Below, piece after piece: positions 644-39,479 of a stretch of 42,176 nt of DNA. The notes under the pieces were generated by a model. It worked only from the letters and a program-made list of their open reading frames with translations. It searched no databases and was not told the DNA's origin. The stretch lies in sequence record SRR20825019_2882. One strand, 5' to 3'. The position numbers and the translations under genes were made by a program. Each line of letters opens with the position of its first letter. The first letter of the stretch is position 1.

Positions 644-1505
644 TGTGATATGATTTTGATAACTACTTTTGGCGCCCTATATAAGTAGAGCCATGGCGAG
701 ACATGACTACGAAAATAAGGGAATATCCAGATTGAGAGAAGGGGTTGGTGACGCAGTGCCCCAGCGTGAATCCCTCTGGTTCTCAGTCTGGCAAGCCTTC
801 GGTCGACCTTGAACGATGATGCACCACGCAGCCATGCAACGCCTTACAGAGTGTGTGAGCAACTGACACTTCCCTCGAACACAGAGTCGAACAACGGCTT
901 TCGTTCTCGAAACGTCGTCAGCCGGGGGCGGGGTCACGTCCGTGCCCCAATGCGGTGTCAGGAGAGAGTGCCCAACAACCATCCCACGACGGCTTGAAGT
1001 GAGTCGGTCAAAATTGAGGGCTCGAACATCATCATGTCGACCTTGTTGTCAGTTCAACTTGAGGGTGTGTGGGAAGGATTGTGATGCGTCCTTTATCCCC
1101 TCGGGGAATTTGAAGACTCCAAACATCGGGCCCATTTGGCTTCCGAGTCCGAGTCCATGATTGGTTCACCGGCCGGACCGGCCGGTGAGCGGACCACGCC
1201 GGGCTGCAGGCCCACTGAGTGTGGCCGTGGTTCACCCCGGGTCCCGTCCATCGATTCGTGTGGTTTCCCTTGCTTGAGAAGCGTGATGCAAACTGAGTGA
1301 GCCCAGCGGCCATTCCGCTCAATGTGGGGGGTGGAGGTGGGTGTGGGGGTGTGGCGCGAACATTCTAGTTCACTCACTGCTAGTTTTGTGGACATACTGA
1401 GTCGCGCGCACGCGGCGATGGTTCACTTGACGTTTTGCAAAAAGCTTTTTGTGTTTAACTTGAAAATAACGTCAATTAGCACGTAAACTTTTTGACGAAC
1501 TCAGC

Positions 1506-3180
1506 ATGGTGGTTCAAGAGATAACTAGCGAGGCTGAGTTTCGCACCTTGATATCAGGACCCGCTGTTGTATTTGTTGACTTCTATGCAACGGTAAGTGA
1601 CGAACTTGTTGCGACGAAGGAGTACTGACAGAGTAAATGATGCAGTGGTGCCCCCCATGGTATTTGTCGAGAGTCCTGTTTCTATTAAGTTGAGAGTGTC
1701 CTTACAGTGTGTGTGTAGCCGTGCCATTGGCCCCTATTTTGAGGAGTTCAGCAAGAAGCATTCTACCAAAGGGAAGTTTGTTCGGGTGGATGTAGACAAA
1801 GTCAAATCGTTGCAGTTGTGGGCTGGTGTCACTGCTATGCCCACCTTCCAAGCCTACTCAGGGAGCAGGAAGGTAATCATCTTTCGACCACTTACGAAAG
1901 GAATCTAAGACTTATTCTTCTTGCCGTAGATTGATGAGATGGTCGGAGCTCATAATGCCGATTTGGAGAAGTTTATTCTTAAGAATGGAAAAGTGGATCT
2001 TGGACCTGGGTATACTCTGGGCGGAGGGCCTGTCGGCGAGGCCCCAGCTTCCTCCACTCAAGTTGACACACCAATGGAAGAGGCGGGCGATGCGGAGTTG
2101 CAGCAAGCCATTGCCATGTCATTGTCACAAGAAAAGGAACAAGCGGCCAAGCCTAATATAGTTTGCGATGGCGACTCATGTAGTATCACACCCAGGGAGA
2201 CACCCGCTGCCCAACCATCCAATGCATCAGGAAAGAAGCTCCCAGATGTTAATGCCAACTTCCTGCAGCAGATTAAGGACATGGGAATCCCCGAGGTGCG
2301 AGCATACAAAGGATTGCTCTTCACCCAGAATGCTTCCGTTCAGCATGCTTTGAACTGGATTATGGAACATGAGTCAGACCCTGACATTGATGAAGAACTT
2401 ATGGTGGTGGATGGTCCGGGAGAGGGCGGGGCTACCCCGGCCCAGCCGGAGTCTAATCTAACGCCAGAAGAAGCAAAGGCCAAGGCCAAGGAACTTGTTA
2501 AGAGGGCAAGAGAAAAGAGGGAAAAAGAGGAGAAAGAGGCTGAACGTGAACGTGAGATGATGATGCGGAAAGGAGGAAAGGATCTTACTGAAATCAAGCG
2601 CAAGCACGAAGAAAAGGAACTGGAAGATATCCAAAAGCTGCGAAAGGAAGAAAAGCGTCGCGAGGCGGAAGAGAAGAAGCGCATGAGGGCTCTCCTTGAG
2701 CAAGACAAACTTCAGCGTCGCGTTGAGCGGGAAAATAGAGAGAGGGCAGCTAAGAACCTCCCGCCCCTGAACTCAGATGAAATTGAAGAGATTCGGCAGG
2801 CAATGTTCCCAGCGAATGCTAAGCCAGCTGCATCAAAGCCGGCCCCAGCTGCTACCCCAGCCGCTGCCGCGGCTCCAGCACGCCAAGTTCCTGCTAAGAG
2901 AGCTGCCCCGGCGGCCGCGGCCGCCCCTGTTCCCAACGCGACCCAGTGTGTTTTGCAGGTCCGCTTGTCCAATGGTAGTGCCATCATGGAGACCGTGACG
3001 CCCACCACAACAATTCGTGAGGTTGTGGATATAGTGACTAGCAAGCGCACGGATGGATCCGCACCCTTCAAGTTGATGACGCCATTCCCGCGAAAAGTTT
3101 ATGGCGATGCTGAACTTGACAGGACTGTATCGGAGGAAGGTTTGGTCCCACGGTCAGTTTTGCAGCTGGTCAACGCATAG
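1506..3180 (+). CDS. Thioredoxin (WCPPC) + UIM + UBA + coiled coil + UBX protein (UBXN1/SAKS1-like C-terminal part); exons 1506-1592, 1646-1659, 1719-1872, 1930-3180
   Basis: Trx fold: VFVDFYAT|WCPPC|RAIGPYF...VDVDK...VTAMPTF. UIM-like: DAELQQAIAMSL. UBA: LQQIKDMGIPEVRAYKGL...ALNWIMEH. E/K/R-rich coil, then UBX: LQVRLSNGS...TPFPRKVY...GLVPRSVL. All three introns are GT-AG and keep the frame. Confidence 0.9.
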
Positions 3181-3225
3181 AGGAATAAAGAGCACAGCCA
3201 CTGCAGAGCGACTTTTGAAGAGTTT

Positions 3226-5507
3226 TCATAAGTATTTCTCTGCGATCGTTGTGAGAAATTCGTGGAACTCATTCTCAAAGATGAGCCTCTTGAGGATGGT
3301 AGTTGCTTCACCCAGTCTCCCTTCCCCTGGCCCACCAAGTTGCGCGACCTCATCAACGATCATGTCATCCAAGAGTTGTCTATCTATGTCCGCACCACTG
3401 TCAAGTTTGCAGGAATGTGCCATCCAGTACCACAATTGAGCACGGGCAATTTCCGCGGTCGCTAGAGTACCTAGTCAGGATTATCGGCATACTCAGAATC
3501 TTCTAGCAAACGTACCTGTCTCCTCCATCATTCCGTTTATCGCAACACATCCCCTCCCGTATATCCAGTTCTCGAGATATTGCAAAAGCACTGAAATGTT
3601 CCCACGCAGCCCTGCCTCAGTTATCTTTCCACCACTAATGGACACATTCACTGTAAAAGATGTAAGTCAAGGTGCTGTTGTTCATAATTAAGTGGGTTAA
3701 CGCACAAAGGTCCGATTCCTTGATATCGACTGATATTGCCTTGTCCTTTTGATGGTCTTTCCCGTCCATTGCTTTCGAGAATATATCCATTACCAACGCA
3801 ACCAGCGCTGGGTGAGCAACCCATGTTCCATCAAAGCCGTCGTTCCCCTCGCGCCCTTTGTCTTCCACGACCATTCTAATTGCAATCTCATTCTTGTGTA
3901 CATCTCTACGGTTGGGAATGTAGGCGCTCATCCCCCCAATAGCATGCGCCCCCCTTTTATGACATGTTTTCACCAAAAGCTATAACAATGTTAGTATCGC
4001 CCACAAGAAGGTTCAAGTTCATGACGCACTCTTGCAAAGGCTCGTAGGAAAGGTGCTTCCATTGTGATTTGATGGCGGTCTGGTAAGAGCCATTCCTTGT
4101 GCTTTTGGTTTCTCTTAATCGAACTGAATATGTAGTCCCAGCGACCCGCGTTTAACTGATTCAAGCATTAGCAATGATATGATCGATGGTCTCGGATGCT
4201 CACCGCAGTGACGTGTTCTTTCAATTCATACAATATTTCTTCCATTTCGAATGCTTTCAGTATACGTCAGCTCTAACGAGTAAATCCATCATTCGCGGCT
4301 TACCAGCTGGTAAAGTTTCAATTAACACACTTGCCCGTATCGTGCCGTGCTGAAGCTGCGCAAAACGAGTCACAAAATGCCCAACGGCAGCAAATCCAAC
4401 CATACTCCCATCCGTTCTTGAGAGAAAATGAAGACGTTGTTCCAGAACCTAGCCTCTTGATGTGATTCTAGCTGCATAATGATTTCAGAACCTCTCCTCC
4501 CGCCATACTGAAAACGGTTAAGGTTTTCATTACCTTAGGCAGGTAGAAGTACGGGCCTGTCTCGTTATCAAGGAGTTCCTGAGAGTTCAGATAAAAGAAG
4601 ATTCCTTCATGATACTCAGTGTGATTGCCATAGTTATCGCGCCAAATCTTACCGAAATCGAAAAGACTGGCTGAAATAGCCTGCCCTGATATCCTATAGT
4701 GTGATTCTTCCATATGCAACCCACGCGGTCGCATCATTAGCACAGCTCCATGCCTAGGCTGCCTCTTCGTTTCGCCGTTAATTTCGGCACTTAACTGAGA
4801 AAAGGGCACGGGTGAGGTTCTAGTTGGCAGCCTGGATCCAATGATCTATTCTCTTACCACCCCTCGAACCGCGTCGTACAGATTGATTTGTGCAGTGACA
4901 ACGTTTGCCCACGTGGGTGCCAGCGAATCTTCAAGGTCCGCCATATAAACATTGGCTCCCTTTGCACCAATCAGATTTTTGTAGCGCGGACTCATGTCTA
5001 CAGGTCAACTTACACTGCCAAGCGCGTTTATCATCATCCGTCTATCGGGAGGGCCTGTATGTTTCACACAGTGTAAGCAACTGCAGGATTGATGGATAGG
5101 CAGACCCACCGGTGATTTCAACCCATCTTTTTGACAGTTCTGAAGGGCACCCCGCAATACTCCAGTCTCCCTTCCTGATGTCCGACGTCTGAGCAGTCGA
5201 ACGTCAACAGACGTCGTTCCGGTGCGCATATATCGTACCTCTTCAATGAACTGAAGTGAGTTACCCGTGTCAAGATGTGTTTGGCGCTCAGTCCTCAACT
5301 TCAGCAGTCTCCTTCTCTCGCCTTCAAAGTTGTGGTGCAGCTCCGCAACAAATGCCAAGGCCTAACCCAAGTGTTAAAGAGAGATTCCAGACGGCCCCAG
5401 TAACATACCTCTGGAGTCAAGACATCTTCTGCTCTATCAACTACTCCTTGCAAACTGTCGACTTGAACATCGTCGTGGACAGCACCAGTTCTGATGCAGT
5501 TTCCCAT
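3226..5507 (-). CDS. Malate synthase A-type, multi-exon
   Basis: Motifs [69 protein letters not shown] and [11 protein letters not shown], spread over more than 10 short exons. Confidence 0.93.
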
Positions 5508-6705: not shown

Positions 6706-8383
<1,678 letters not shown>

Positions 8384-18959: not shown

Positions 18960-21900
18960 ATGTTGAAGCGCAGGAAGACTGGATCCAAAGCCGATGGTGC
19001 CCCGTCTGTGAACCTTCCTGAAGGGTGGGCTGAAGTTCAAAGGGAGGGAACTGATTTGAAGCAAGACCTCGTATTCTACCTGCACAAAAGTTCAGGATTC
19101 CGCATTGTGTTGTGCCCCGTCGATGGCCCTATCTGTAGCGCCGCCATGTTCCTCCAGACTGAAGCGAAAGACGACCGTGGACTTCCACACACTCTTGAGC
19201 ACTTGGTATTCATGGTGGGTCTCATGCTATTTTCGTATGTAGTGTTCTTACATTGTAGTGCTAGGGTTCCACCTCAACACCCCATAAGGGGTATCTTGAC
19301 AACTATGCCACCCGGTGCTTTGCAAATGGTACGAATGCCTGGACTGCTGAAGATCATACAGCGTATACTTGCGACACTGCTGGTGACGAAGGTAGGTCCC
19401 GAAGCAACGCGGATCCGTTTGAACCTGATGTTTTCATTTGCAGGTTTAATTAGGGTTCTCCCAGTCTACTTGGAGCACATATTCAAGCCCACCCTGACAT
19501 CGTCCGCATTTATTACCGAGGTCTACCACGTAGACGGTGCTGGCAAGGACCAAGGTGTTGTATACAACGAAATGGCTGGCCGCGAGAATAGCGAGGTATT
19601 GTGACAGGTCGGCTGGGCCATCTTTTCCTAAACTCACGAGGCAACTGCACCAGGGCGATTTGATGTACTTGACGGCCGCTCGCTTACTGTATGAAGGCAC
19701 AGGCTATTCCTATGAAACAGGGGGTCGCACTGACGATATTCGAACATTGACCAATGATGATATCGTTGAATACCATAGCAAGTTCTACGTCCCTTCAAAT
19801 GCTTGTTTGGTAGTGGCCGGCCAGGCCAACGTGACCGAGTTGATTAGTGCTGTCGATCGCGCTATTACTGATGGGGGCCACACCCCGATGGAGACGAATG
19901 CTTTCTTCGATCCTATTCCACCTCTAACCCAGAATAAGAGTAGTCTGGTTCCATTTCCCTCGGCTGATGGTAAGTGTCATGCCCGATATGCTATATGTTT
20001 TCATTTACGTTGTCATTTCATCCAAAGATGATGTTGGTAGTGTGATGCTATGCTGGCGTGGTCCGGATTGGTCGGATGTGCACACGCAAGTTGCAATCGA
20101 CATTCTTATGCGGTATCTTCAAGATACCGGTGCTTCACCGCTGCACCAAGTATGCAATCACTTTGTGACACTTGTTGGAGTATTAATCGTGCTGTTGCAG
20201 GCGTTTGTTGAGAGCGAGACCCCCGTGTGTTCTGATGTAAGTTGGGGATCCCTTTCTTTCAAGCAAGTCGGAATTATGCTTGCTTTCAGTGGCCTGGAGA
20301 TCAAATCGGGAGTGTCTGCAGAGGTGGGTTGAGCAAGTTGTATTGATTGCAGAGCTCTGCTGACATGCCCAAAGGATGTGGCATCAAAGGGCTGCGGTGG
20401 TTGCTTTGCGTCTGCGTGTGACCCCAACCGCGCCAAGTCAGAAGAAGAAGGAGAAGAAGAAGAAGACGACGACGAAGATGATGAAGATGATGAGGAAGAG
20501 AGCAACGATGCTATGGAAGAGGATGACATTGTTTTTGAGAAGTTTTCTCCGCAGCCAGATATTCTCGAAAATGGCGTGCTCCAAGAAATGGTGAAGAAGA
20601 CTCTGTGGACAGTCCATGATGAAGTCTTCGGATCACCTAAGGCAAAGGAGATTATGAAGCGGATTATTCATAAGCATCGGGTCCATTATATTAACGCGTA
20701 GGTGCTCTTCTTGCTTGCTTGCCAAAATACTAATGTTTTCTCTATCTACCAGGCTGGAGGCCCAGCCTACCGACCAGGTTATCGATGCGGTTGGAATCTC
20801 CCTGCTCCGCGATAGCGAGAAAGGTCTGCACTATGCTGCACAACGCATGTCAACGCTAGCAATACTCGACAAGCTCGAAAAGGAAGAAGGCTCCTTCTGG
20901 CAGCGACTGCTCAAGAGCGTTTTCTTAGAAGCCTATTGCGTTGAAGTTCGCATGAAACCAGACACATCTCTGGCTGAAGTTCGCGCGAAAGAAGTTTCAG
21001 ATAGAGAGAATGCCAGGAGCCAGAAATACGGAAAGAAGGGCTTGGAGAGTTTGTCGAAGGCCGCCGCAGATGCCATTGCCATCAACAGCGCCCCAGTTCC
21101 CAAGGATATAGCCCAAACCTATCCGCCGCTCCCCTCGGTTGAGCGAATTCCCCTTCTGAAAATGTCTTCTCGATCGGTAGACACCCCAGGAAGTTCCACG
21201 GGGCGAACCCGCCAATATGTTGGTGTAGACACGCATTTTAGGACTCTCACCATAGTAATTCCGATTGGTAACATGCCTATTGCCCTTGAGCCATATGTGA
21301 ATTTGTTCCAGGAGCTCATATTCCGCACGGACGTGTATCTGCCCGGTGGTTTAGAAATGAAGGCCGGCGCTGAACTCGAGCTTGTCTCACACAAGGATGC
21401 AGTTGAAAGGATATCCGAAGACACTCTTGCCTTCGATTGCGGAAAAGGACTGGGCCCGTCGAAGTTCACGTGTGCAAGTGCCGGTGACGTTTTCACGATC
21501 GAGGGCAAGTGCGAAATGGAAAAGTTTGAGCGCCTTTGCAATTGGGTGTCGGCTATGTTCCATCTAACGGTGTTCTCTGAAGGGCGTATTAAGACACTTC
21601 TCTCGCACTTGCTTTCAGACGTCACCGAGGAAGAACGCTCTGGAGACGATATTGTGAATCATCTGGAAACGCTGGTGTGGAGCCCCTACCTCGAGAACAA
21701 GGTGTACGGCACTGGCAAGATGCCGGCCGATGATGTAATCGCGGAGTTGCCCGTGTGCAAAGAAATGGCCCTGGGTATTTTTACGCAGAAGCCGTTCCTT
21801 ACTCACATCAAGAGCAAAATCTCCACAAAAGTAGGCCTCTGCGAGGTCATCGAATCTCTGGAGCGCGTAAGGGGAATTATTCTCTCCAACTTCACCGAGG

Positions 21901-22932
21901 CAATGGTCCAGTACAGTTCGCCTTTCCACGTGCACGCAGAGGCCGCTTCAAGTGTCTTTGAGGCGTCCTGGAACTCCATGAGGGTTTTGTCGAAAACGGC
22001 AACAGGAAACGAGCATCACCTTCAGTCTAGACCATTGCTGCCATACGAACATGGTTATCAACGGCAGTTACCCGGCAAAGATATTACATTGGTAACCCCA
22101 GTGAAAGGAAGCGAGTCCATTTATTTGAGCCAAACCGTTGCCTGTGAAATCCCCGCAGGATCTGCCGATTACTACGCCGTATGTAATTGCGAGGACCAGC
22201 ATTCCAGTACTAATGCCTTTTTTCAGGTCAAAGTGCTCTGTGAGATGTTGAGCTTCACTGAAGGTCCTATCTACCAGCGCGTGCGTGGAGCTGGTCATGC
22301 CTACGGCGCCTATGTACGTGATTGGTGGTTCCATGGCGGCCTGTGGATATTTGCTCATGTTGTTCTACCAGGTCCATCTGCAGAGCATGCATGGTAGCTT
22401 ATGCTATCAAGTTTCTGAGTGCTCCGCCGCCGGCGCATCCATAGCAGCATTCCACGATATTCTCAAGAATCTCCCTGATGATATGAATGACTTTGACTGC
22501 GATACAGCGAAATCTGCCGTGATTTTTGACATGCAAAGGTAAGGATGTCCATGGTCACTCTCACACTGAGACTAATTTTGTTCTAGGAAACGCTCTACTC
22601 CCTCTCGCATCACTGGATATTCTTTGTACTCCGTGATTTACGGGTTTGGCTCCGCTGAAAAGCGTGTGGATAGTGAGATGGCGATTGAGAAGATCTCTGT
22701 CCAAGGTGTGTGGCCTAACCTCTCCTTCCACACTATTTGACATATACGATGCGATGCAGATTTGCGCCGAGTTTATGACAAGTACTTCACCGCGTTCTTG
22801 AACCCAGGAGATCGTGTCACGGTGTGCGCAACAAGCTTGGCCAGCCAAAATGATGTCGTGAAGTCTTTGAAATCGATAGGACTTGTCCCCGTAGTCAAAG
22901 ACATCGACGCCTTGCGAGTGTGGAAGCCATAG
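18960..22932 (+). CDS. M16 (inverzincin; M16C/presequence-protease-like) zinc metallopeptidase, multi-exon
   Basis: GLPHTLEHLVFMG (HxxEH), GVVYNEM, YETGG, YHSKFYVPSN and C-terminal IYQRVRGAGHAYGA. Acidic insertion at ~20440-20525. Confidence 0.9.
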
Positions 22933-22976: not shown

Positions 22977-24449
22977 TCACTTCACGTGTGCCTCGACTCC
23001 TATGGTAAGGTAATCTCTGCTTTGCATCTCAATCAGTCTCGAGACGGTGCGGGAATACGCGAATTCCTCATCAGTAGTTCCGGCACTTTCGCCTTCTTTA
23101 GGAACGAACAGCTTCTCTGGCTCAGTCTCTGCACTACAAACCAGTTTCCGACGATGTTCATACACCTGATCCACAAACGTGATGAATCTCCTGACTTCGT
23201 TGATTGTAGACACAAAATTCAATTGGGGAATGTCGTCCACGAATATGGTGTGATACTCCTTACATATCGCGATGTAGTCGACTGCTGAAAGGGGCTGTCG
23301 GCACAGATCATCAAAGGTGAACCGGGCAACTCCATGGGCCGCCCGGGGAATATGAATGGGTCGGTTGAGCGCCACCAACGTGCTCGGGTGGGCATCATCG
23401 CCTTTCGTTACTGTTTTGAAAGTCTTATCAAGCTTGTTCGTGGATGCGGGGCCCAGGGGCGTTTGGTACACATCCGGAGTCCTGCTCCCAACTAGACGGT
23501 AATCGGTGTGCGAGTCCACACAGTGGATTGCGCAACGGTCCTTGAGAGTGTCTATGAACGGAAGGAATAACGATCGCTGCAAACCATTCTTGTATAGGTC
23601 ATCCGGTGGCCTATTGGAGGTTGCAACAACCACAGCCCCTTTCTCGAACATCGAGTCGAAAAGCCGCTTAAGAATCATGGCATCGCCGATGTCTGTTACC
23701 TGAAATTCATCAAAGCACAGGAGCCACCCCTGCGCGAGCAGCTGGTCACGAACCAAGTGAACATGATCCTCGTTCTTCTTCTGCGTTCTGGAATCCGGGA
23801 CAAGCGGTCAGAAGCAGCAAGGACACACAATGCCTTCAATACACACCTCATGTGGTGCAAGCGCTCATGCACGTCCAGCATGAACTGGTTAAAGTGGACA
23901 CGGCGCTTATTCGCCAGGGGTAGCGTATGGAAGAACAAGTCCATACACATAGTCTTTCCCGATCCAACCCCACCATATAAATACGCACCACGAGGGCCCC
24001 TCGTCGCATGGCTTGTAACTGCGGCCTTAGCTTCTTCCTCATGACCACCTCCAAGCCACCCAAACATTCCACCGCTCTTTTTCGGGGCCGCTTGCTTCGT
24101 CGGCGAAGAACTTGACCTTATCTTGCTCACGTCATTGAAGACGCTCTGGAGGACTTGAAGGGCAATAAGTTGGTTCCTGTCTTCTTGTACACGTCCCATA
24201 TCCACAAGCTGCCTGTATAGTCAACCAGAATCAGTACAAGGCTTATGTGAATGAGACTGCCACATACTTATATGCCTCAAGAGGAGGTGTTCCAACCTTG
24301 ATACCTTCGTAAAGTACGGCATTATCGACTTGGTTTTGAGGACTGAAGGTACTCAGATGCTGTACTGCTGCCGTGACTACCGCAGGCCGAGAAAAGAGTC
24401 CCCGCAACCCTAGTGCTCGCCTAGAAAGCGCGCCTTGATTGAGCAGCAT
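22977..24449 (-). CDS. AFG1: AFG1/LACE1 (ZapE family) mitochondrial ATPase, multi-exon
   Basis: Arg-rich presequence, GAYLYGGVGSGKTMCMDLFF, RVHFNQFM, LCFDEFQVTDIGDAMIL, TSNRPPDDLYKNGLQR, RRFITFVD and FAYSRTVSRLIEMQ. Confidence 0.95.
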
Positions 24450-25258: not shown

Positions 25259-28110
25259 ATGGCGTTCTTAAGTGCCAACGCCACATTTAACCGTCATCGC
25301 TCAACGTCTAGTCTGAATAACAAGTCGTTTGAAGACCACCTCAGTGAAATTGAGAATAATGTGGCTCTCTCCGTGAATCTCAGAGGGAAGATGAGTGTTG
25401 CGGTATGTTTATGCCTTTGATTTTTGATTGTCTTGGTATTCTAACGGAAGCGAACAGGAGGTAGATAGGCTTGCGCTTGCTCTTCGCCGGAATACGTCTG
25501 TTAGCTCGTTGGATCTGAGCCGGAACAAGTTTGGCGACCATGGTTCCAGCCGCCTTGTGAGGACAATGCAGGCCGGTCTCACAATTCGAATGCTTAATCT
25601 CGCTAACAATATGATATGCGGTACAGTGTTGACTCTTATGCATTGCTTGGATGCTTATCAACTGACATGTAGATGACGGAATGTTGGCGATTGCGGACTT
25701 TCTTAAGCAAGATACGTGTTTGGAGGTCCTGCTGCTAATGAATAACGATGCTGGAGATCAGAGTGCACTTCGATTTGCGGCCGCACTGCGACAAAATAGC
25801 ACCTTGAAAACGCTCAATCTAGAAAACAACGACATTTGCAGGGAGGGGGCGGAGTCATTTATAGAAGTGGTGGAGCAGGGGACATACCTTCACGAATTGC
25901 ACTTGAAGGACAACAATGTCCCGCCCCCTGTCATTGACAGATTAGATCGTCTTCTCGAATCCAATGCCGCTATCTACAAGCGCACCGAAGAACCAATGAA
26001 GGCGTTGATCATTCAAGCGGCAAATTCCGCAGGAGTGAAGGAGCACGAAAGCTGGAATGAGGGTTATTCAGGGCAGAAGGTGGCTGTTAACGAGATGTCA
26101 ACCATAATGGCTGCACTGAAGTGGAGGCCGGACCGAGAGACTAACCGGCCCTACAGAGTACTATTTGTGGGTGAAGATGGCGTGGGCAAGGCGGAGCTGG
26201 CAAGGAGAGCGGCGAGATCGATGCATATGGATGACAAATTTCCAACAATGGATCAACTCAAGGGAGAGGGTAAATACATGGAGTTTGATGTCTCCCAAAT
26301 CAACGGAATGCCGCTTATTGATGCTATGGTGAAGCGCATGAGGGTGATGTCGGGTGAGTTTGCGTGAAGTGGTAAGGTATGGGGCTGACAGATCATGCAG
26401 GCAGGAGAATAGGACCTGTGGTGTTTCTTGAAATGATAGAGAAACTCGATACCAATGCGCTTGCAAGTATCGTGAAGTCTTTTGAGACAGGAATACTCCA
26501 AGCCGGATCGTCACAGTGCGACTGTCGCAATGCCCTCTACATCACATCGGCAGTAGTTGGGTCGGAAGTGTTACGGTCCGTGCTGCAGTCCGATGCCCAT
26601 GCGCGCGATGCCCAATCTCTTGTAGATCTCGATAATCTCATGGTGGGCCCGGAGCGGAAGAGCATTCTCACTGCTCTCCAGGAAAGATCTGCCACCAAGC
26701 GACGAAAGTCAATATCTCTTCTGCCGAATTCGAACGAGAGCGCCGCAGCCCTCAACGATTTTGTTGACCCAGCAATTCTGGCTAAGTTCAACAAGGTGAT
26801 ACCCTTCTGGCCAGTGACGGAAGAAGACATGGCCGAAAGAGCACGTGGTATGCTTAAGGTTCTTCGTCGTGAGTTTATCGAGGAGCGCATATACCTTGGG
26901 TATATGGACCCTGAAGTCGTTAATATGGTTGCCGAAGGGCTTATCAAAGTTCTCCGCGAAAACCCCAGGATTTCGTATATACGCAACTTCATAGCTAAGG
27001 CCATTCAGTCTGCAGAGATAGTCCCCGGTGATGCTGTGTTGCTATATCTTGATGCTAACGGGGTCCGTTTTATTCGGAAGCAAGTGGGACAGGGTTTTGG
27101 AAGGCAGGGCTTGCGTCGTTCCAGCAAGTCGCTGAAGATGCCTGGGCAAGAGGTTCGCGAGACCGAGTTGGCGTCGTCGATCGTAAATTCATGGCAGCGT
27201 ATGACTGCCGAACGCAAGAAGACAAGCTCTCCACAGCCAAACCCCGACTCGAAGGATTCACCATCGAGTGAGAATGACTTGGAGAGGCGGTCACTTCACT
27301 CAATGATACGGCCCTCTCTTGTCAGACAATATACTGAGGACGTAGATTCGGAACAAGGTGATACAGTCGGAGACACCCTCGGAATGTCGGATCAATCGAT
27401 GATTGATAGTCCCCGCAAGTCTGTTGTCGCAAGTCATTCGGAAACGCCAGATCACGAGAGGGCTTCCCCGGAACCTGCAGTGCAGGAACGAGGAATGAAT
27501 AGCGCAGATCCTATGGTACCATCTGGTGGGCACGGCCATCGCCGCACGACATCTGGCTATAGTACATCCATGATGAGCCCCAGATACGCCTCACCCGCCG
27601 GGTCGAGTATGTAGCCTGAACGATGCTATTTTTGTGCAGACATTTACTGATCGTCCACAGAACCAACCCACTGGTCCAAGGAGGATATTGCCACCTATCT
27701 CCGAGAGAGTAACATTGATGGAGCCAGCATCACGGTAGGTTTTACTACTCGCGTGTGTGGGAAACCTTGGCTGACGATATATCAGCGGCTACTGAAGGCT
27801 GGCGTGGACGGTGAAGTGCTCATGATGCTCAACAAAGAAGAGCTCTACAGGGTACAGTATGCATTTCCTTGCCAAGCGCGCCGCCCTAATGCTGCACCAG
27901 GATCTCAAGCTGCCTCTGGGCGCGACAATGAAAGTCCTCGGAGTGAAACAGAAGCTTTTGGACGGCATGAATCAGATGGATGCGAAGGTTGAGGCTGAAG
28001 CGACTCCAACTCAAAGCCCCCCATCATACACCGTGACTATCGATCTCCGGCTAACTGGCGTAATTCTGCTTTCTATAATCGTTGCCTTTCTGGCAGGAAA
28101 GGCCATCTAA
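25259..28110 (+). CDS. RI-type LRR + degenerate ClpB-NBD2-like AAA+ module + Ser-rich linker + SAM domain + C-terminal TM helix, multi-exon
   Basis: LRRs: SLDLSRNKFGDHG, LNLANNMI, TLNLENNDI. AAA module: GQKVAV...NRPYRVLFVGEDGVGKAELAR, VVFLEMIEK, DCRNALYITS, KVIPFWPV. SAM: HWSKEDIATYL...GVDGEVLMML...DLKLPLG. TM: LTGVILLSIIVAFLA. Confidence 0.82.
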
Positions 28111-34297: not shown

Positions 34298-37200
34298 ATG
34301 GGCGGAGAGGGAGCAAGTTACGGTAGGTGTAGCATAGGAGTGAGCTTCGGTGAAGTTGAAGTCAAGATTTCTAATTTTTTTTTGTCAGGGGCTTTCAAGC
34401 GAAACACCAAGAAGTGGTCATTGCGCCACAGTAGCGTCGCCGATATGGAAGCAGGCAAGAACTACGTAGACGAGGCCAGTCATAGCATTACCGGACCGTT
34501 GGATTTGGCTGACGACTCGCATGCTCGTCTCCAAGATGGCGAAGCTGTTGAGGACTCACAAAAGCGGCACACGCGGCGTCAATCCAGCATCGCAGTCATA
34601 AAGAACGAGTTGCAGACCATCGCTCAGATTGCCACCGAGTTGGTCAAGGGAGAAGCAGCCGTGACAAAGAAGATGGAGATGGACGAAGAGACTCGAGAGC
34701 TTAAGAAGGCGCGGGAGGAATATGAGGAAGACGTGACGAGGAGGGTGAGTGTCTCGCCTTTGATGGTGAATCCTGCTCATACTGTTACGGTTAGGTTCAA
34801 GCACTCATTCGTAGAACGCTGGTGCGCAAGGAGTACCATCATGTTCGCCGAGACAAGATGATATCCTTCAACAGAGCCAAGTTAATCCGCAGGCTGAATG
34901 AACTGCCCGATGCCCGCACGAGCTATTGTCTCTTGTTCTTCTACATGATATTCTTCGCTGTTGTAATGACATATTTCCGAACATCTGTGAGCTCTGATGC
35001 TCGATATGCCTCAGGAGGGTTTATGAAGGACACCATTATGACTGAATGGTGGCAGGTGTGTGGATATGCTCTGAACTTTTTCTTGCTGCTTAGCTCTGTT
35101 TAATTAGGCTGGGGATGACGGGTATGAAGTGCGGACCGTTGGCGATTTGTATACATTCATCGATGTAGGTCGTGGATATGGTTTTATCATCCGTAAGCTC
35201 ATGCATCCAAAGAGTGCAATCCTCCAACAGTTTGAGAGTCGGTCAATAACAAGGCAGGATGGAACCGAGGATAGCGAGGTGTTCATGTGGAAGCAAGGGC
35301 AGGGATTAAATGGAGTTGTAATTGCGCAGGTAGCCGCTTTGGCATTATCGCGTAGCTTCTCAGCTGACCCTGGGCCTAGATACGAGGGAATGAGGAATAT
35401 TGCAGTGACAGGTATACCCTGACCCAGGGCACTGACTATAGTGCCAATGTCTGTCAGATGTCGATCGCCAATGGCGGCATCAATACTGAGGCATTTGGAA
35501 ACCTGACGCACAGAGACTTCAATGATTATTTTAATGGAAAAAATATGGACGCCAAGTTCTCCACGAGCGCACCATGCCCCAGCTTTTCTTTTGACACCGG
35601 GGGAGCGAGTGGCAAATGGGGAGAGTCTCACGCTATAATAGTAATGTGTAGCAGCTGTTTACCGCCTCTATTTTGCTGATGTGTTGTTTTTCAGTTTCCT
35701 TATGAAAAAGGTGACAATGAGTTCATCACGTACTTCTCCGATGCCCTTGCTTTAGTCGAGAGATGTGAATTTCTTGATCATAGGACTAGATACCTTACTA
35801 TAGAAGTGATGCTTTTCTTTGGAAATGAGATCCCGCTAGTTGCTATTCTGTGGATAACATATGAATTTTCCATATATGGGCAAGTTATTCCATCATATGA
35901 ACTCTTTATCGTAGATATTCTTCCGGCAACTTGGGGAATGTGGACTTGTGTCATGATCATGTTTTTCTCTTGCATGTTCATGGCCGCGTCGTATGTCTGT
36001 ATGTTATTATACTCGTGTTTGGAAAGGGGCATTGGGAGAACAATATCCGAGTATTTACGAAATTACTGGACTCTCTTCGATCTCATTTTTATCATCATCA
36101 TTTTTTTCTTTTGTTCATACTTCTGGGTAAGATTTCTTCCTATGTTGATGTTGCTTTTGGCTGACAACGGCATTCTTAAGGCCATTGAGTCGGTTCTTTC
36201 ACAACAGTCCGCTGACCGTAATGAATATTCGAAAGAATTCCGGAATAATATTGTATCCATCTCGGATTTATGGAGCACATTCAGGACTGTGCGAGCAATA
36301 ACTGGAGCAATGTCATTTTTGAAGATCTTGGAATATACGCGGCACCGGGGTATGCTTTCCATTCTTACACAAACTCTGTACAAGGCTGCGATGAGGATCA
36401 GTCATTTCCTTCTCACACTTCTTCTTTTCGGCGCCGCTTTCTTGGTACTCAGTGAAGAATGGTTTGGAGATCGACTGCTGAACTACAGTACTTTTGGTCG
36501 GGCTTCTATGACTTTGCTGAGAATGACATTTGGAGACTTCGAATACGAAGAATTAAGACTTGCCGCCCCTACCACCTCCGCACTCTTCTTTTGGGTAGGT
36601 TCACAACGATTAATATCATTACATTCTCTCATCTTTTGCAGGGATTTTTGATTATCATGGGCCTTGTGTTGACGAACTTCTTCATTGCCATCATTTTGGA
36701 TACTTATTCACAGGTATACGATGAGACATCTGGTTGAGTGGCACCGGGTCTGATGTTGTCTTGTGTCCACTTCAGGTCATGTCAGCAAGAAGAATGAACG
36801 AGAACATCGTCGAAGAGGCCCACCGCCAGTTTATGAACAGCTATCATGCTTTTACGAGTCACACCATCCCTGCCCAAGAACTCGCTGCCATTTTGACTTG
36901 GGATCGCCAACTATCAAGGAAACGCTTTGTCACATTGTTTGACATTCGTTCGCGGTGTGGAAGGAACAAGTTATCGGGGGAATGCCAGCTGGTATGCCAC
37001 TTGGCCACGAGCATGTCTTAAGTGTTGACAAATGTTTCGTTTCAGATTTTGTACGAGTATCATGAACAGCCGTCTGTTCCGTTTGTAAAACGTGTAATTG
37101 CCCCGGCATATCGCTACTACAAGATCAAAACGTTCACCACATATCGTCCACCATTGCCTAACTTTCTTCGAGGTACCTGGATAATATATGTCCGTGTGAA

Positions 37201-38129: not shown

Positions 38130-39332
38130 CTAGGGTATGTAAGGGTCGTCGGAGTCATCATCCATGCCATGGCTTGTGTTGCCGTATGGTGACCGCATGG
38201 AAACCATCCCATACTTCGAACCCTTGTCGCTGTGTGGGGAAATCCCTCCCCGGCCCTGGTCTGTATCGGAGAGCCGCGCGCCTTCACCTTCATCTTCCTC
38301 CTCATCGTCGCCCACTATCTGGAACACGGTCGACTCATGCACAGGGCCCTTCCTGGATATCGTCATCTCTAATTCGTGCTCGTCATCAATGTAGTCTCCC
38401 ATGTCCACAGTGGGAATGTTATGGTCCTGTTCAGCCCCGTCCATCGTGCCCTGCTGAATGTATCCCTTCCTACCAACACACACCCCGCACACCCGGCCAA
38501 ACATCATGCGGTACTGCCTGATAAGGCGAGGGTTTACGCCATATATCATCGCATTGAGGAACCCGTGAAAAGGCACAACCACAGCGTGGATAACCTCTAG
38601 AATCGGGATTCGTTCATCAGGAAAGGCTACGGTGTGAAGCCGATGCACCAGTCCAAAGCTCCGAACACCAACAAATACTAGCAAATAGAGGCTCAGTCGA
38701 GTCTGGAATGTCTGCTGCTGTTTCAGAAACTTGTTCATATTGGACTGGTCAGACACATTCTCTGACATGCGCTTGAACTTCTTCCGCAGGTCTCGAATGA
38801 TGCGCACGTACATCACGGCGCAATACATGGTGATTATCACAAGCGGGGCGTAAAATAATGCCCAGCGATAAACCTGGCACACCCCATGATCTTTTACCCA
38901 ACACCACGTATCAGTCTCTCCGAAACAGTTTGAAGCTCCGATAACAATGCTTCCTACCAGTGGGAACCCCCAAGAAGCAATATGGTAATACTTTTCCCTC
39001 TGGCGGGCTTTGTCGCGCTGGTTCTGCACGAATAGAACAAACATGTTTGCAGCAATGCACGCCGTCCATACGAACCCAGCCACGTCGGCGAACTGCATAA
39101 GTGCCGCAGTGACCCTGCACATAAGGTCCAGGCTCGCCAAGCAGAAAGCCAGTCCCGAAAAGAAATTTGCAACAGCCAGATAGGATACCAGTTTTGCTGA
39201 ATACGACTTCAGCTCTCGGCATGTGAAGTAGTTTACCACCACAAATAACGCCCCAGCCATGGAAAACGCTCCGCCAGTCCCAACAGCCAGTCGTATAAGG
39301 GTGTCGTATTCACCATCCTCTTCCGACGTCAT
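38130..39332 (-). CDS. 7-TM GPCR of the cAMP-receptor-like (cAR/Crl/GCR1) family, intronless, with an acidic C-tail
   Basis: Seven hydrophobic segments, KLVSYLAVANF, CRVTAALMQF, WTACIA, YHIASWGFP, WCWV and GFLNAMIYG. Confidence 0.9.
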   Translation of the reverse strand: MTSEEDGEYDTLIRLAVGTGGAFSMAGALFVVVNYFTCRELKSYSAKLVSYLAVANFFSGLAFCLASLDLMCRVTAALMQFADVAGFVWTACIAANMFVLFVQNQRDKARQREKYYHIASWGFPLVGSIVIGASNCFGETDTWCWVKDHGVCQVYRWALFYAPLVIITMYCAVMYVRIIRDLRKKFKRMSENVSDQSNMNKFLKQQQTFQTRLSLYLLVFVGVRSFGLVHRLHTVAFPDERIPILEVIHAVVVPFHGFLNAMIYGVNPRLIRQYRMMFGRVCGVCVGRKGYIQQGTMDGAEQDHNIPTVDMGDYIDDEHELEMTISRKGPVHESTVFQIVGDDEEEDEGEGARLSDTDQGRGGISPHSDKGSKYGMVSMRSPYGNTSHGMDDDSDDPYIP

Positions 39333-39479
39333 TGGTTTGCTCTGTTTCAGGGGCTCGCCCTGGTCACAACATGAACCAGTTATGAAACACGTTTTATTTC
39401 AGTGTTATGCTTGGGAGCTTTGAGGAGTGGCAGTTACTATCGAGGGGGTGTAACGGGGACTAGGCCTGTTTGACTCAGA

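What the first reader, a model, noticed from the sequence alone, without database searches (positions are those of the whole stretch)
1506..3180. Thioredoxin-CxxxxC-UIM-UBA-UBX fusion: candidate redox-active p97/Cdc48 adaptor
Seen: an N-terminal Trx with an intact WCPPC dithiol, then a UIM, a CDGDSC motif (2164-2181) in a flexible linker, a UBA, a coiled coil and a UBX with the FPR loop. Known: UBXN1/SAKS1 is UBA-coil-UBX with no thioredoxin, and the Trx-like UAS domains of other UBX proteins lack a CxxC. Flexible CxxxxC pairs shuttle disulfides in class II ribonucleotide reductase tails and in Deinococcus FrnE. Inference: one polypeptide that binds ubiquitinated clients, docks on p97 and reduces their disulfides through a CPPC/CxxxxC relay.
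Basis: partly seen in the sequence, partly recalled or inferred. Interest (0 to 1): 0.72.

Follow-up and report, generated by a model that had tools for sequence, protein, structure and literature searches.

The report
Thioredoxin-carrying Cdc48/p97 adaptor, protist gene
A spliced, expressed gene of an unidentified single-celled eukaryote joins an active-looking thioredoxin to ubiquitin-binding and p97-docking modules; it belongs to a widespread but unstudied protist family that probably puts a disulfide reductase on the cell's protein-unfolding machine.

Summary
Assembled cDNA contigs join all four exons, so the stated refutation (Trx exons not joined) fails.

The fusion is not a one-off. Of the 150 best representative homologues, 26 are Trx+UBA+UBX, 6 Trx+UBA+PUB and 2 Trx+UBA. 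Named members come from red algae, glaucophytes, Amoebozoa, CRuMs and oomycetes. The CxxC is intact in 31 of 31 that cover the site. The second pair is not conserved: 0 of 34 have C-x3-5-C in that linker, and no close orthologue exists to test it.

The reading "redox-active p97 adaptor" is therefore plausible and family-wide. The CPPC/CxxxxC relay is unsupported.

This scan met the same family before on other DNA (e1-555492, a red alga). A Trx+PUB relative, diatom sPUB, is in print with a presumed redox role at Cdc48. No biochemistry exists for the family. I rate it a new member of a catalogued, uncharacterised kind, of moderate interest.

The parts
1494..3204 (+). mRNA as seen in assembled cDNA contigs: 12-nt 5' UTR, 24-nt 3' UTR
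   Evidence: Both contigs begin at 1494. X2 carries a loose end there that I recognise (recalled) as the end of a SMART-type template-switch oligo. X2 record 3 ends at 3204, 15 nt after AATAAA (3184-3189, read). X1 runs on past 3400, probably merged with the convergent neighbour's transcript.
1506..1592 (+). Exon 1 (CDS residues 1-29), start of the thioredoxin, no signal or transit peptide
   Evidence: The cDNA 5' end at 1494 leaves no room for an upstream coding exon.
1593..1645 (+). Intron 1, 53 nt, GT..AG
   Evidence: joint 1591>1645 'skips 53 GT..AG (cut +1)' in X2. It is also absent from X1.
1646..1659 (+). 14-nt microexon that encodes the WCPPC active site (its last codon is completed by exon 3)
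   Evidence: table 5c: 13 letters of it lie between 1592 and 1718 in X1..
1660..1718 (+). Intron 2, 59 nt, GT..AG; retained in one cDNA contig, which gives a stop after residue 44
   Evidence: X2 record 2 runs unbroken over 1645-1870; translation of the retained form.
1719..1872 (+). Exon 3, core of the thioredoxin fold including the cis-Pro 'MPTF'
   Evidence: PF00085 3.5e-6 on this exon alone; best solved matches are LECA thioredoxin 2yoi (2.7e-8) and Chlamydomonas Trx h 1ep7.
1873..1929 (+). Intron 3, 57 nt, GT..AG
   Evidence: joint 1870>1928 'skips 57 GT..AG (cut +2)' in both X1 and X2.
1930..3180 (+). Exon 4 (residues 86-501 plus TAG stop): last Trx helix, SHP-like motif, UIM, CDGDSC, UBA, long helix, Ala/Pro-rich linker, UBX
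1996..2025 (+). Degenerate SHP-box-like motif DLGPGYTLGG (residues 108-117). It is the positional equivalent of the family's FxGxGxxLG, with the first Phe replaced.
   Evidence: A strict SHP pattern sits at this place in 25 of 34 Trx-bearing homologues. The window matches only the GxGxxLG core. The consensus F-x-G-x-G-x-x-h is from PMC8181520, section 2.4.
2089..2127 (+). UIM-like helix (residues 139-151)
   Evidence: PF02809 E 0.043, below the cut-off; helix at ORF 54-70; a UIM pattern lies in the same linker in 10 of 34 homologues.
2164..2181 (+). CDGDSC (Cys164, Cys169) in a disordered linker; specific to this lineage
   Evidence: pLDDT below 50 for ORF 71-101; 0 of 34 homologues have C-x3-5-C here.
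2251..2394 (+). UBA domain (UBA_7)
   Evidence: 6.9e-17; best solved match 1whc_A 'UBA/UBX 33.3 kDa protein', 8.8e-10; three helices, pLDDT 96-97.
2464..2751 (+). Single 96-residue Glu/Lys/Arg-rich helix before the UBX
   Evidence: H179-274, pLDDT 93-97. Oligomeric state and ubiquitin binding were not tested.
2938..3168 (+). UBX domain with Arg430 in strand 1 and the FPR loop (3085-3093)
   Evidence: 3.7e-18; top Foldseek hits are UBX domains solved on the p97 N domain (6hd0_D, 5x4l_C, 3qq8_B).

Best explanation
The gene encodes a cytosolic or nuclear accessory adaptor of the Cdc48/p97 unfoldase. It is built like UBXN1/SAKS1 (UBA, long helix, UBX). An N-terminal, catalytically competent h-type thioredoxin, a weakened SHP-type second p97 contact and a UIM have been added.

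Shown:
- It is one spliced, expressed polypeptide.
- All domains are intact.
- It belongs to a widespread Trx-(SHP)-UBA-(UBX or PUB) protist family that keeps the CxxC.

Inferred:
- The UBX (helped or not by the SHP-like motif) docks on the Cdc48 N domain.
- UIM and UBA hold the ubiquitin chain of a client.
- The roughly 90-residue flexible tether lets the thioredoxin reach the client at the pore entrance. There it reduces intra- or intermolecular disulfides that would block unfolding.
- The thioredoxin is recycled by thioredoxin reductase.

This would be the p97 counterpart of what is proposed for TXNL1 on the 26S proteasome. CDGDSC is most likely a lineage-specific accident of a disordered linker.
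For: - Gene model and expression. cDNA contig X1 joins all four exons, including the 14-nt active-site microexon. The 5' end at 1494 leaves no targeting peptide.
- Domains. Pfam Thioredoxin, UBA_7 and UBX. The AF2 model has confident UBA, 96-residue helix and UBX. The UBX fold is nearest to UBX domains solved on p97-N. The thioredoxin is nearest to canonical cytosolic thioredoxins.
- Family. Of the 150 best of 986 hits, 26 are Trx+UBA_7+UBX, 6 Trx+UBA_7+PUB and 2 Trx+UBA_7.
- Module swap. UBX and PUB are two different p97-binding modules (PMC8181520, passages). Their exchange points to p97 docking as the constant.
- Active site. CxxC is present in 31 of 31 homologues that cover the site (28 WCGPC, 2 RCGPC, 1 WCNPC). 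Three are N-truncated.
- SHP box directly after the thioredoxin in 25 of 34.
- Tree of the UBA-to-C-terminus part, 60 rows. The Trx label needs 12 changes against a shuffled mean of 19.9 (0 of 500 shuffles as low). The window sits in a 34-row set with 25 Trx-bearing rows, SH-aLRT 89.
- Named members (13 of 30 clusters looked up) are red algae, glaucophytes, Amoebozoa, a CRuMs flagellate and oomycetes.
- Analogy. [quoted passage not shown]
Against: - There is no biochemical result for any family member. Four literature searches found none.
- The SHP-like motif of this protein lacks the Phe that contacts p97 in UFD1 (PMC8181520, section 2.4), so bipartite docking may be lost here.
- WCPPC differs from the family's WCGPC. 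None of 31 homologues share it.
- The organism's own Cdc48 was not available, so binding is inferred from family knowledge only.
- TXNL1's substrate-reducing role is itself still a proposal.
- The cytosol is reducing, so disulfide-blocked clients may be rare.
- One of the two cDNA contigs retains intron 2 and would give a 44-residue product, so part of the mRNA may be unproductive.
Confidence: 0.55

Rival explanations
1. The tethered thioredoxin acts on Cdc48/p97 itself. Docked by UBX on the N domain, it keeps redox-sensitive cysteines of the ATPase reduced. This would restore ATPase activity, cofactor binding or localisation after oxidative stress.
For: Yeast Cdc48 Cys115 lies on the N domain near a modelled UBX-binding site and is reversibly oxidised (preprint 10.1101/733709, abstract and passages). 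Human p97 Cys522 is S-glutathionylated under oxidative stress, which lowers ATPase activity (PMC5389986, one passage). The same domain evidence applies as for the main reading. The published guess for diatom sPUB is 'a redox regulatory function ... via sCdc48' (PMC3101018, passage).
Against: The UIM and UBA, kept across the family, are not needed to reduce the ATPase. Thioredoxins are poor deglutathionylases compared with glutaredoxins (recalled). The organism's Cdc48 sequence was not seen, so the presence of the target cysteines is unknown.
Confidence: 0.2
2. One reading: CPPC and the linker CDGDSC form an intramolecular disulfide relay. The flexible C-x4-C shuttles electrons between the thioredoxin and clients or a reductase.
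For: Both pairs exist. CDGDSC lies in a segment with pLDDT below 50, about 130 residues from CPPC on the same flexible chain. A random placement of the three other Cys gives such a pair only about 4.8% of the time.
Against: 0 of 34 Trx-bearing homologues have C-x3-5-C between Trx and UBA; one has C-x6-C. No close orthologue exists to show purifying selection. A canonical thioredoxin needs no second dithiol.
Confidence: 0.07
3. The thioredoxin is not used catalytically on clients. It serves as a redox sensor that switches the adaptor, or as a holdase or client-binding domain for oxidised or unfolded proteins, as described for TXNL1's chaperone role.
For: Trx-fold domains without catalysis are common in p97 cofactors; the UAS domain lacks CxxC (PMC8181520, section 2.7). 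A TXNL1 review abstract mentions chaperone function (PMC13531033, search listing only).
Against: A sensor or holdase would not need strict retention of both cysteines, the cis-Pro and the buried Asp across 31 of 31 homologues.
Confidence: 0.12
4. Gene-model artefact: the thioredoxin exons and the UBA-UBX exon belong to separate transcripts.
For: Before cDNA was seen, the model depended on a 14-nt microexon. One contig retains intron 2.
Against: X1 joins all four exons and X2 joins exons 1, 2+intron 2+3 and 4 in single contigs. The same architecture occurs in 26 of 150 homologues, several from transcriptomes.
Confidence: 0.02

Closest known systems
Uncharacterised protist Trx-(SHP)-UBA-UBX proteins, e.g. 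KAA8492603.1 'Thioredoxin' of Porphyridium purpureum, PRP88338.1 of Planoprotostelium fungivorum, and EukProt records of Gloeochaete, Cyanophora and Diphylleia. The scan's earlier finding e1-555492 is of this kind.
   Same: Same order of Thioredoxin, linker, UBA_7, helix and UBX. The CxxC is intact. The best hit P0016 is 40% identical over the exon-4 part, and the Trx domains are 25-45% identical. The window groups with them in the tree.
   Different: WCPPC instead of WCGPC. The SHP box is degenerate (Phe replaced). There is an extra CDGDSC pair. A UIM is present, as in only 10 of 34. No member is closer than 40% identity, so this is a deep, separate branch from an unidentified eukaryote.
UBXN1 / SAKS1 (animal UBA-helix-UBX cofactor of p97)
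   Same: UBA_7 then a long helix then UBX. The best solved match of the UBA is 1whc_A 'UBA/UBX 33.3 kDa protein'. Nearest Atlas clusters are named 'UBX domain-containing protein 1' at 0.87, a lead only.
   Different: UBXN1 has no thioredoxin and 'apparently lacks a SHP box' (PMC9941556, section 9). In the tree the UBXN1-like rows, many with an OTU1-type zinc finger, form a separate 20-row set with 19 Trx-less rows. That split is weakly supported.
[quoted passage not shown]
   Same: A thioredoxin joined to a Cdc48-binding module. A redox role at Cdc48 has been proposed in print (PMC3101018, passage). Related Trx+UBA+PUB forms turned up here in oomycetes (P0035, P0134).
   Different: sPUB uses PUB, not UBX. 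It is targeted to the periplastidal compartment. Its Trx is reported as YbbN-like (preprint 10.1101/2025.03.31.646294, section 8 passages), whereas this one is h-type. No sPUB sequence was compared here.
TXNL1 / TRP32 (Trx + PITH, 26S proteasome cofactor)
   Same: A redox-active thioredoxin is tethered to a ubiquitin-dependent AAA+ unfolding machine. It is proposed to reduce substrates during unfolding (PMC12700817, passages; PMC12700798, abstract start only).
   Different: TXNL1 docks through a PITH domain on Rpn11, Rpn10 and Rpn2. No PITH hit appears here at E <= 1, and the machine differs (proteasome, not p97). This is a functional analogy only.
UAS-containing UBA-UBX adaptors (FAF1, FAF2/UBXD8, UBXN7; yeast Ubx2; plant PUX)
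   Same: UBA plus UBX plus a thioredoxin-fold domain in one p97 cofactor, with a long helix next to the UBX (PMC12630741, abstract and passages).
   Different: UAS lacks the C-x-x-C (PMC8181520, section 2.7) and sits between UBA and UBX. Here a true CxxC thioredoxin sits at the N terminus. Whether the helix is a ubiquitin-binding UBH was not tested.

Membership tests
Thioredoxin (PF00085), catalytic type | Pfam match above the gathering score | tested here: met
   Exon 3 alone scores 27.4 bits against a cut-off of 23.5, E 3.5e-6. The full spliced domain could not be submitted to the tools.
Thioredoxin (PF00085), catalytic type | W-C-x-x-C dithiol, cis-Pro loop and buried Asp before the active site | tested here: met
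   WCPPC (residues 30-34), 'MPTF' and 'VDF' are read. They line up with the family consensus.
Thioredoxin (PF00085), catalytic type | Disulfide reductase activity recycled by thioredoxin reductase | not testable with these tools
   Needs an insulin-reduction or DTNB assay.
Protist Trx-SHP-UBA-UBX family | Domain order Thioredoxin, UBA_7, UBX in one polypeptide | tested here: met
   The same order is found in 26 of 150 homologues.
Protist Trx-SHP-UBA-UBX family | SHP box F-x-G-x-G-x-x-L directly after the thioredoxin | tested here: not met
   Only GPGYTLG is kept, and the first Phe position is Asp. 25 of 34 homologues meet a strict pattern, so the feature is common but not universal.
Protist Trx-SHP-UBA-UBX family | Groups with Trx-bearing members in a tree that leaves out the Trx columns | tested here: inconclusive
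   The window lies inside a 34-row set with 25 Trx rows. SH-aLRT is 89, the branch is not starred, and this was a quick search.
UBX-domain p97/Cdc48 cofactors | UBX beta-grasp with conserved Arg in strand 1 and the F-P-R loop | tested here: met
   PF00789 3.7e-18. Arg430 and FPR 471-473. Foldseek 6hd0_D TMt 0.86 and 5x4l_C 0.84.
UBX-domain p97/Cdc48 cofactors | Physical binding to the Cdc48/p97 N domain | not tested
   The organism's Cdc48 is not in the window and no genome is held. No complex prediction was run.
UBXN1 / SAKS1 orthologue | UBA-helix-UBX with no other catalytic domain and no SHP box, grouping with animal UBXN1 | tested here: not met
   It carries a thioredoxin and an SHP remnant. 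It falls outside the 20-row UBXN1-like set, though that split has weak support.
UIM (PF02809) | Pfam match above the gathering score | tested here: inconclusive
   14.1 bits against a cut-off of 21, E 0.043. A helix is predicted, and the motif recurs in the linker of 10 of 34 homologues.
TXNL1 (Trx + PITH) | C-terminal PITH domain | tested here: not met
   No PITH family appears among hits at E <= 1.
sPUB (Trx + PUB, periplastidal) | PUB domain and an N-terminal targeting signal | tested here: not met
   There is no PUB hit. The mRNA starts 12 nt before the ATG and the protein starts directly with the thioredoxin.

The most novel reading that the evidence does not exclude
The Trx-(SHP)-UBA-(UBX or PUB) proteins are the Cdc48/p97 counterpart of proteasomal TXNL1. 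They would be a dedicated co-unfolding disulfide reductase held at the entrance of the unfoldase. They would be ancient in eukaryotes, since named members span red algae, glaucophytes, Amoebozoa, CRuMs and stramenopiles. No animal, fungal or land-plant Trx form turned up among the 13 named clusters, so they may have been lost or replaced there. This window adds a deep, divergent branch with WCPPC. Within it, the still bolder idea that CDGDSC is a second, relay dithiol is not excluded, but I give it only about 0.07.
Probability: 0.35. Interest if true: 0.65.

Novelty: new member of a known kind. Interest (0 to 1): 0.4.

Why it matters
How AAA+ unfoldases cope with disulfide-linked or oxidatively cross-linked clients is an open question. 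For the proteasome, TXNL1 has only recently been placed structurally, and its substrate-reducing role is still a proposal. A natural fusion hard-wires a canonical thioredoxin to ubiquitin-binding and p97-docking modules. It is kept with an intact active site in at least five deep eukaryotic lineages. That is genetic evidence that reduction and p97-driven unfolding are coupled.

The fusion also offers a compact, testable reagent: one polypeptide, trapping mutants and in vitro unfolding assays. This window itself adds little beyond a divergent member and proof of expression. Its distinctive CDGDSC pair has no support from conservation.

Tried and rejected
- RNA evidence by record. No RNA holder is listed. 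The two runs that hold the stretch are of unknown kind. Their contigs nevertheless lack the introns.
- Word-indexed protein search with the exon-4 ORF. Candidates were capped at 8000, probably by the Glu/Lys-rich helix. It returned 15 hits, none with a thioredoxin, and so missed the family that the exhaustive search found.
- Word-indexed search restricted to residues 1-175. 486 candidates, none significant. No close orthologue is available to test CDGDSC.
- Protein Atlas. Only UBXN1- and PUX-like clusters at 0.76-0.87, which are leads only.
- Whole genome. None is held, so the organism's Cdc48, thioredoxin reductase, TXNL1 and UBXN1 could not be looked for.
- Naming the organism from the AFG1-like exon. 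The best hit is 51% identical. EukProt transcriptomes, Acrasis, Rhodosorus, oomycetes and alphaproteobacteria all lie at 43-54%. The organism stays unidentified.
- The sigma-70 and terminator scan is irrelevant to a eukaryotic gene.
- CDGDSC as half of a zinc finger. Rejected: no zinc-finger family at E <= 1, and no nearby His or Cys partners.
- Earlier-findings look-ups by place and by sequence gave nothing.
- Complex prediction was not used. No Cdc48 of this organism is available and a UBX-p97 pair is a textbook pair.
- Whether the 96-residue helix is a UBH-type ubiquitin-binding helix (PMC12630741) could not be tested without a FAF1 or FAF2 sequence from a tool.
Full report
**What is in the sequence**

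The region is a eukaryotic gene with three short GT..AG introns. I read the exons as 1506-1592, 1646-1659, 1719-1872 and 1930-3180. Joined inside a script, they give a 501-residue protein.

- The second exon is a 14-nt microexon that carries the thioredoxin active site WCPPC (residues 30-34).

Pfam results:
- Thioredoxin on exon 3 alone: E 3.5e-6, 27.4 bits against a cut-off of 23.5.
- UBA_7: 6.9e-17.
- UBX: 3.7e-18.
- UIM: 0.043, below the cut-off.
- No PITH, PUB, UAS or zinc-finger family appears at E <= 1.

**Is the fusion real?**

Two public runs of unrecorded kind hold the stretch. Laid on 1300-3400, their contigs are clearly cDNA-like.

- Contig X1 (3194 nt) covers 1494-1592, then 13 letters of the microexon, then 1718-1870, then 1928-3400.
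- Contig X2 (999 nt) skips 1592-1644 and 1871-1927 with GT..AG ends, but runs unbroken through intron 2.
- Both contigs start at 1494. In X2 that end carries a loose tail that I recognise (recalled) as the end of a SMART-type template-switch oligo.
- A third contig ends at 3204, 15 nt after an AATAAA.

The mRNA therefore runs from about 1494 to 3204, with a 12-nt leader. No room is left for a signal or transit peptide. The intron-2-retaining form would stop after residue 44. Contigs cannot say how common that form is. Both runs come from one sample, so this is one source of evidence.

**Anatomy**

AlphaFold2 on the exon-4 ORF with a 34-row family alignment (A1; model) gave, in ORF numbering (add 85 for the protein):

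| Element | ORF residues | Confidence |
|---|---|---|
| Last Trx helix | 9-20 | - |
| Disordered stretch | 26-51 | pLDDT below 50 |
| UIM helix | 54-70 | - |
| Disordered linker holding CDGDSC | 71-101 | pLDDT below 50 |
| UBA three-helix bundle | 109-146 | pLDDT 96-97 |
| One continuous helix | 179-274 | pLDDT 93-97 |
| Short helix | 282-292 | - |
| Ala/Pro-rich disordered stretch | 306-329 | pLDDT below 50 |
| UBX beta-grasp | 340-415 | pLDDT 95-97 |

- Foldseek ranks UBX domains solved on the p97 N domain first: PUX1 6hd0_D (TMt 0.86), UBXD7 5x4l_C (0.84), FAF1 3qq8_B.
- By sequence, the UBA is nearest to 1whc_A 'UBA/UBX 33.3 kDa protein' (8.8e-10).
- Exon 3 is nearest to canonical cytosolic thioredoxins: reconstructed LECA thioredoxin 2yoi (2.7e-8) and Chlamydomonas Trx h 1ep7.
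- 'Coiled coil' is better described as a long single helix. Its oligomeric state was not tested.

**It is a family, not a one-off**

An exhaustive phmmer search of 1.84 billion representatives with the exon-4 ORF gave 986 hits at E <= 1e-3 and 219 at E <= 1e-10. The best was P0016 at 2e-33 and 40% identity. I scanned all 150 listed hits against Pfam: 65 at E <= 1e-3 and 85 at E <= 1e-6.

- 26 of 150 are Thioredoxin+UBA_7+UBX.
- 6 of 150 are Thioredoxin+UBA_7+PUB.
- 2 of 150 are Thioredoxin+UBA_7 only.
- The rest are UBA_7+UBX (UBXN1-like, several with an OTU1-type or ZZ zinc finger), UBA_7+PUB (plant-like), fragments, or UBA-bearing deubiquitinases.

UBX and PUB are two unrelated Cdc48/p97-binding modules (PMC8181520, passages read). 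Their exchange behind a constant Trx-UBA front is the strongest hint that p97 docking is what the design is for.

I looked up 30 of the 34 Trx-bearing clusters. Thirteen carry an organism name:
- Red algae (group assignment recalled): Porphyridium purpureum, P. aerugineum, Pyropia vietnamensis, Galdieria yellowstonensis, Cyanidiococcus yangmingshanensis, Cyanidium caldarium.
- Glaucophytes: Gloeochaete wittrockiana (checked) and Cyanophora paradoxa (assignment recalled).
- Amoebozoa: Planoprotostelium fungivorum and Ceratiomyxa fruticulosa (checked).
- CRuMs: Diphylleia rotans (checked).
- PUB form, oomycetes (assignment recalled): Pythium insidiosum and Achlya hypogyna.

The sources call them 'hypothetical protein', 'Thioredoxin' or 'UBX domain-containing protein'.

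**Conservation of the two cysteine pairs**

- Three of the 34 are N-terminally truncated before the active site.
- All 31 others keep C-x-x-C: 28 WCGPC, 2 RCGPC (these look like mis-modelled introns) and 1 WCNPC. None has the window's WCPPC.
- No homologue has a C-x3-5-C pair between thioredoxin and UBA. P0035 has Cys166 and Cys173 (C-x6-C).
- Hits of that pattern elsewhere lie in ZZ fingers, in the UBX C terminus, or in a doubtful N terminus.
- A simulation puts the chance of some C-x2-5-C pair among three randomly placed cysteines at 4.8%.
- A word search limited to residues 1-175 found no relative. Nothing closer than 40% identity exists in the representative library.

CDGDSC therefore cannot be tested in near orthologues. 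It is unconserved at family level, and it lies in a disordered linker.

Aligning the spliced protein with the 34 homologues shows a conserved F-x-G-x-G-x-x-L-G directly after the thioredoxin. This is the SHP box, the other linear motif that binds the Cdc48/p97 N domain. Its consensus F-x-G-x-G-x-x-h is given in PMC8181520, section 2.4.

- A strict pattern matches 25 of 34: 20 of 26 UBX forms, 4 of 6 PUB forms and 1 of 2 Trx-UBA forms.
- The window has DLGPGYTLGG at the same place (residues 108-117). It keeps GxGxxLG, but the first Phe is replaced.
- That Phe contacts p97 in UFD1 (same paper), so the second contact may be weakened here.
- A UIM-like pattern lies in the Trx-UBA linker of 10 of 34 homologues. 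An eleventh regex match, in P0035, lies after the UBA and looks spurious.

That prompted me to look, and I confirmed it independently.

**Relationship to UBXN1**

I built a quick IQ-TREE tree on the part from the UBA to the C terminus, leaving the Trx columns out. It had 60 rows: the window, the 26 Trx+UBX proteins and all 33 Trx-less UBA_7+UBX proteins among the 150.

- The Trx label needs 12 changes, against 19.9 on average when shuffled (0 of 500 shuffles as low).
- The window sits inside a 34-row set holding 25 Trx-bearing rows (SH-aLRT 89, not starred).
- 19 of the 20 rows of the other set are Trx-less, UBXN1-like proteins. That basal split is weak (54).
- Several 'Trx-less' rows inside the Trx-rich set are plainly truncated models. 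P0047 and P0105 begin at the thioredoxin's MPTF and then have an SHP box. P0018 has an SHP box and a UIM.
- The window's thioredoxin is 25-45% identical to the family's, whose internal mean is 44%.

I read the window as a deep, divergent member of this family, not an independent fusion. The tree does not prove that.

**The organism**

Earlier notes on the same assembly describe a mix of marine bacteria and an unidentified small-intron eukaryote. Other genes in the window include a Dicty_CAR-type GPCR, a polycystin-type channel, CLN3, malate synthase and an AFG1-like ATPase. The AFG1 exon has no hit above about 54% identity, and its hits are scattered over protists and alphaproteobacteria.

**How it most likely works**

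Shown: one expressed polypeptide, intact domains, and family-wide retention of the CxxC together with a p97-binding module.

Inferred from established knowledge of these domains:
- The UBX docks on the Cdc48/p97 N domain.
- The UIM and UBA bind ubiquitin chains.
- The disordered tether lets the thioredoxin sweep the region above the D1 pore.

My best reading (0.55) is that the thioredoxin reduces disulfides of ubiquitinated clients that would otherwise resist unfolding, and that it is recycled by thioredoxin reductase. This parallels TXNL1. [quoted passage not shown] That role is itself still a proposal.

Rivals:
- The main rival (0.2) is that Cdc48 itself is the target. Yeast Cys115 on the N domain, near a modelled UBX site, is a redox switch (preprint 10.1101/733709, abstract and passages). 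Human Cys522 is glutathionylated with loss of ATPase activity (PMC5389986, one passage).
- A sensor or holdase role gets 0.12.
- A gene-model artefact gets 0.02.

**What is known**

I ran four full-text searches: thioredoxin domain, UBX domain, UBA domain, p97; thioredoxin, UBX, SHP box, WCGPC; thioredoxin, UBX domain, PUB domain, domain architecture; thioredoxin, Cdc48, UBX, red alga. None found a paper that describes a Trx-UBA-UBX protein.

[quoted passage not shown] For it 'a redox regulatory function ... via sCdc48-1/2' was presumed (PMC3101018, passages).
- A recent preprint reports the Trx+PUB combination only in stramenopiles and chromerids, with a YbbN-like thioredoxin (10.1101/2025.03.31.646294, section 8 passages). 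Its supplementary figures were not readable here.
- Reviews of p97 cofactors mention thioredoxin only for the CxxC-less UAS domain (PMC8181520, section 2.7; PMC9941556, sections 5-6).
- They note that UBXN1 lacks an SHP box and has no biochemically shown adaptor function (PMC9941556, section 9).
- Helices next to the UBX in FAF1 and FAF2 bind ubiquitin and boost unfolding (PMC12630741, abstract and passages). Whether the helix here does so is untested.

**Verdict**

A redox-active p97 adaptor is plausible and family-wide. The second-dithiol relay has no support.
- The thing is a new, divergent member of a catalogued but uncharacterised family that this scan has already met once (e1-555492), with a cousin architecture noted in an animal (e1-7393012, not tested here).
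- Interest is moderate (0.4). The family deserves an experiment, but this window adds little that is new beyond expression evidence and an unusual active-site microexon.

Noticed in passing
window 1646-1659 and 1660-1718: The thioredoxin active site WCPPC sits on its own 14-nt microexon. One of two cDNA contigs retains the following 59-nt intron, which would end the protein at residue 44. Skipping the microexon would also shift the frame, so splicing here could act as an on/off control of the whole adaptor.
   Followed up: partly
window 2552: A second cDNA contig start at 2552 carries the same template-switch-like loose end, inside the purine-rich stretch that encodes the long helix. It is more likely an internal strand-switch artefact than a second promoter.
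   Followed up: no
window 3226-3979 and beyond, minus strand: A convergent malate synthase gene (PF01274 1.5e-27 on 3638-3979) lies tail to tail with the adaptor gene. The X1 contig runs from one gene into the other, so the 3' ends are very close or overlap.
   Followed up: no
P0047, P0105, P0018, P0037, P0038 (proteins): Several database models of this family are faulty. Some start inside the thioredoxin (at MPTF). Two carry an in-frame insertion right before CGPC that looks like an unspliced intron near where the window has its microexon introns. Automatic counts of the Trx+UBX architecture will therefore be too low.
   Followed up: partly
P0097, P0150 (proteins): Two Trx+UBA+UBX proteins also carry the ZZ or OTU1-type zinc finger between UBA and UBX that marks UBXN1-like proteins. 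P0150 groups with the UBXN1-like set in the tree. The thioredoxin may have been gained or lost more than once.
   Followed up: partly
window 22980-23807 (-), 35680-36648 (+), 38133-39398 (-), 40652-41473 (+): Neighbouring exons encode an AFG1-like ATPase (4.5e-76), a polycystin-type channel, a Dictyostelium-cAMP-receptor-type GPCR (2e-24) and CLN3 (3.6e-41). Large ORFs at 20658-22394 and 26376-27611 have no Pfam family.
   Followed up: no
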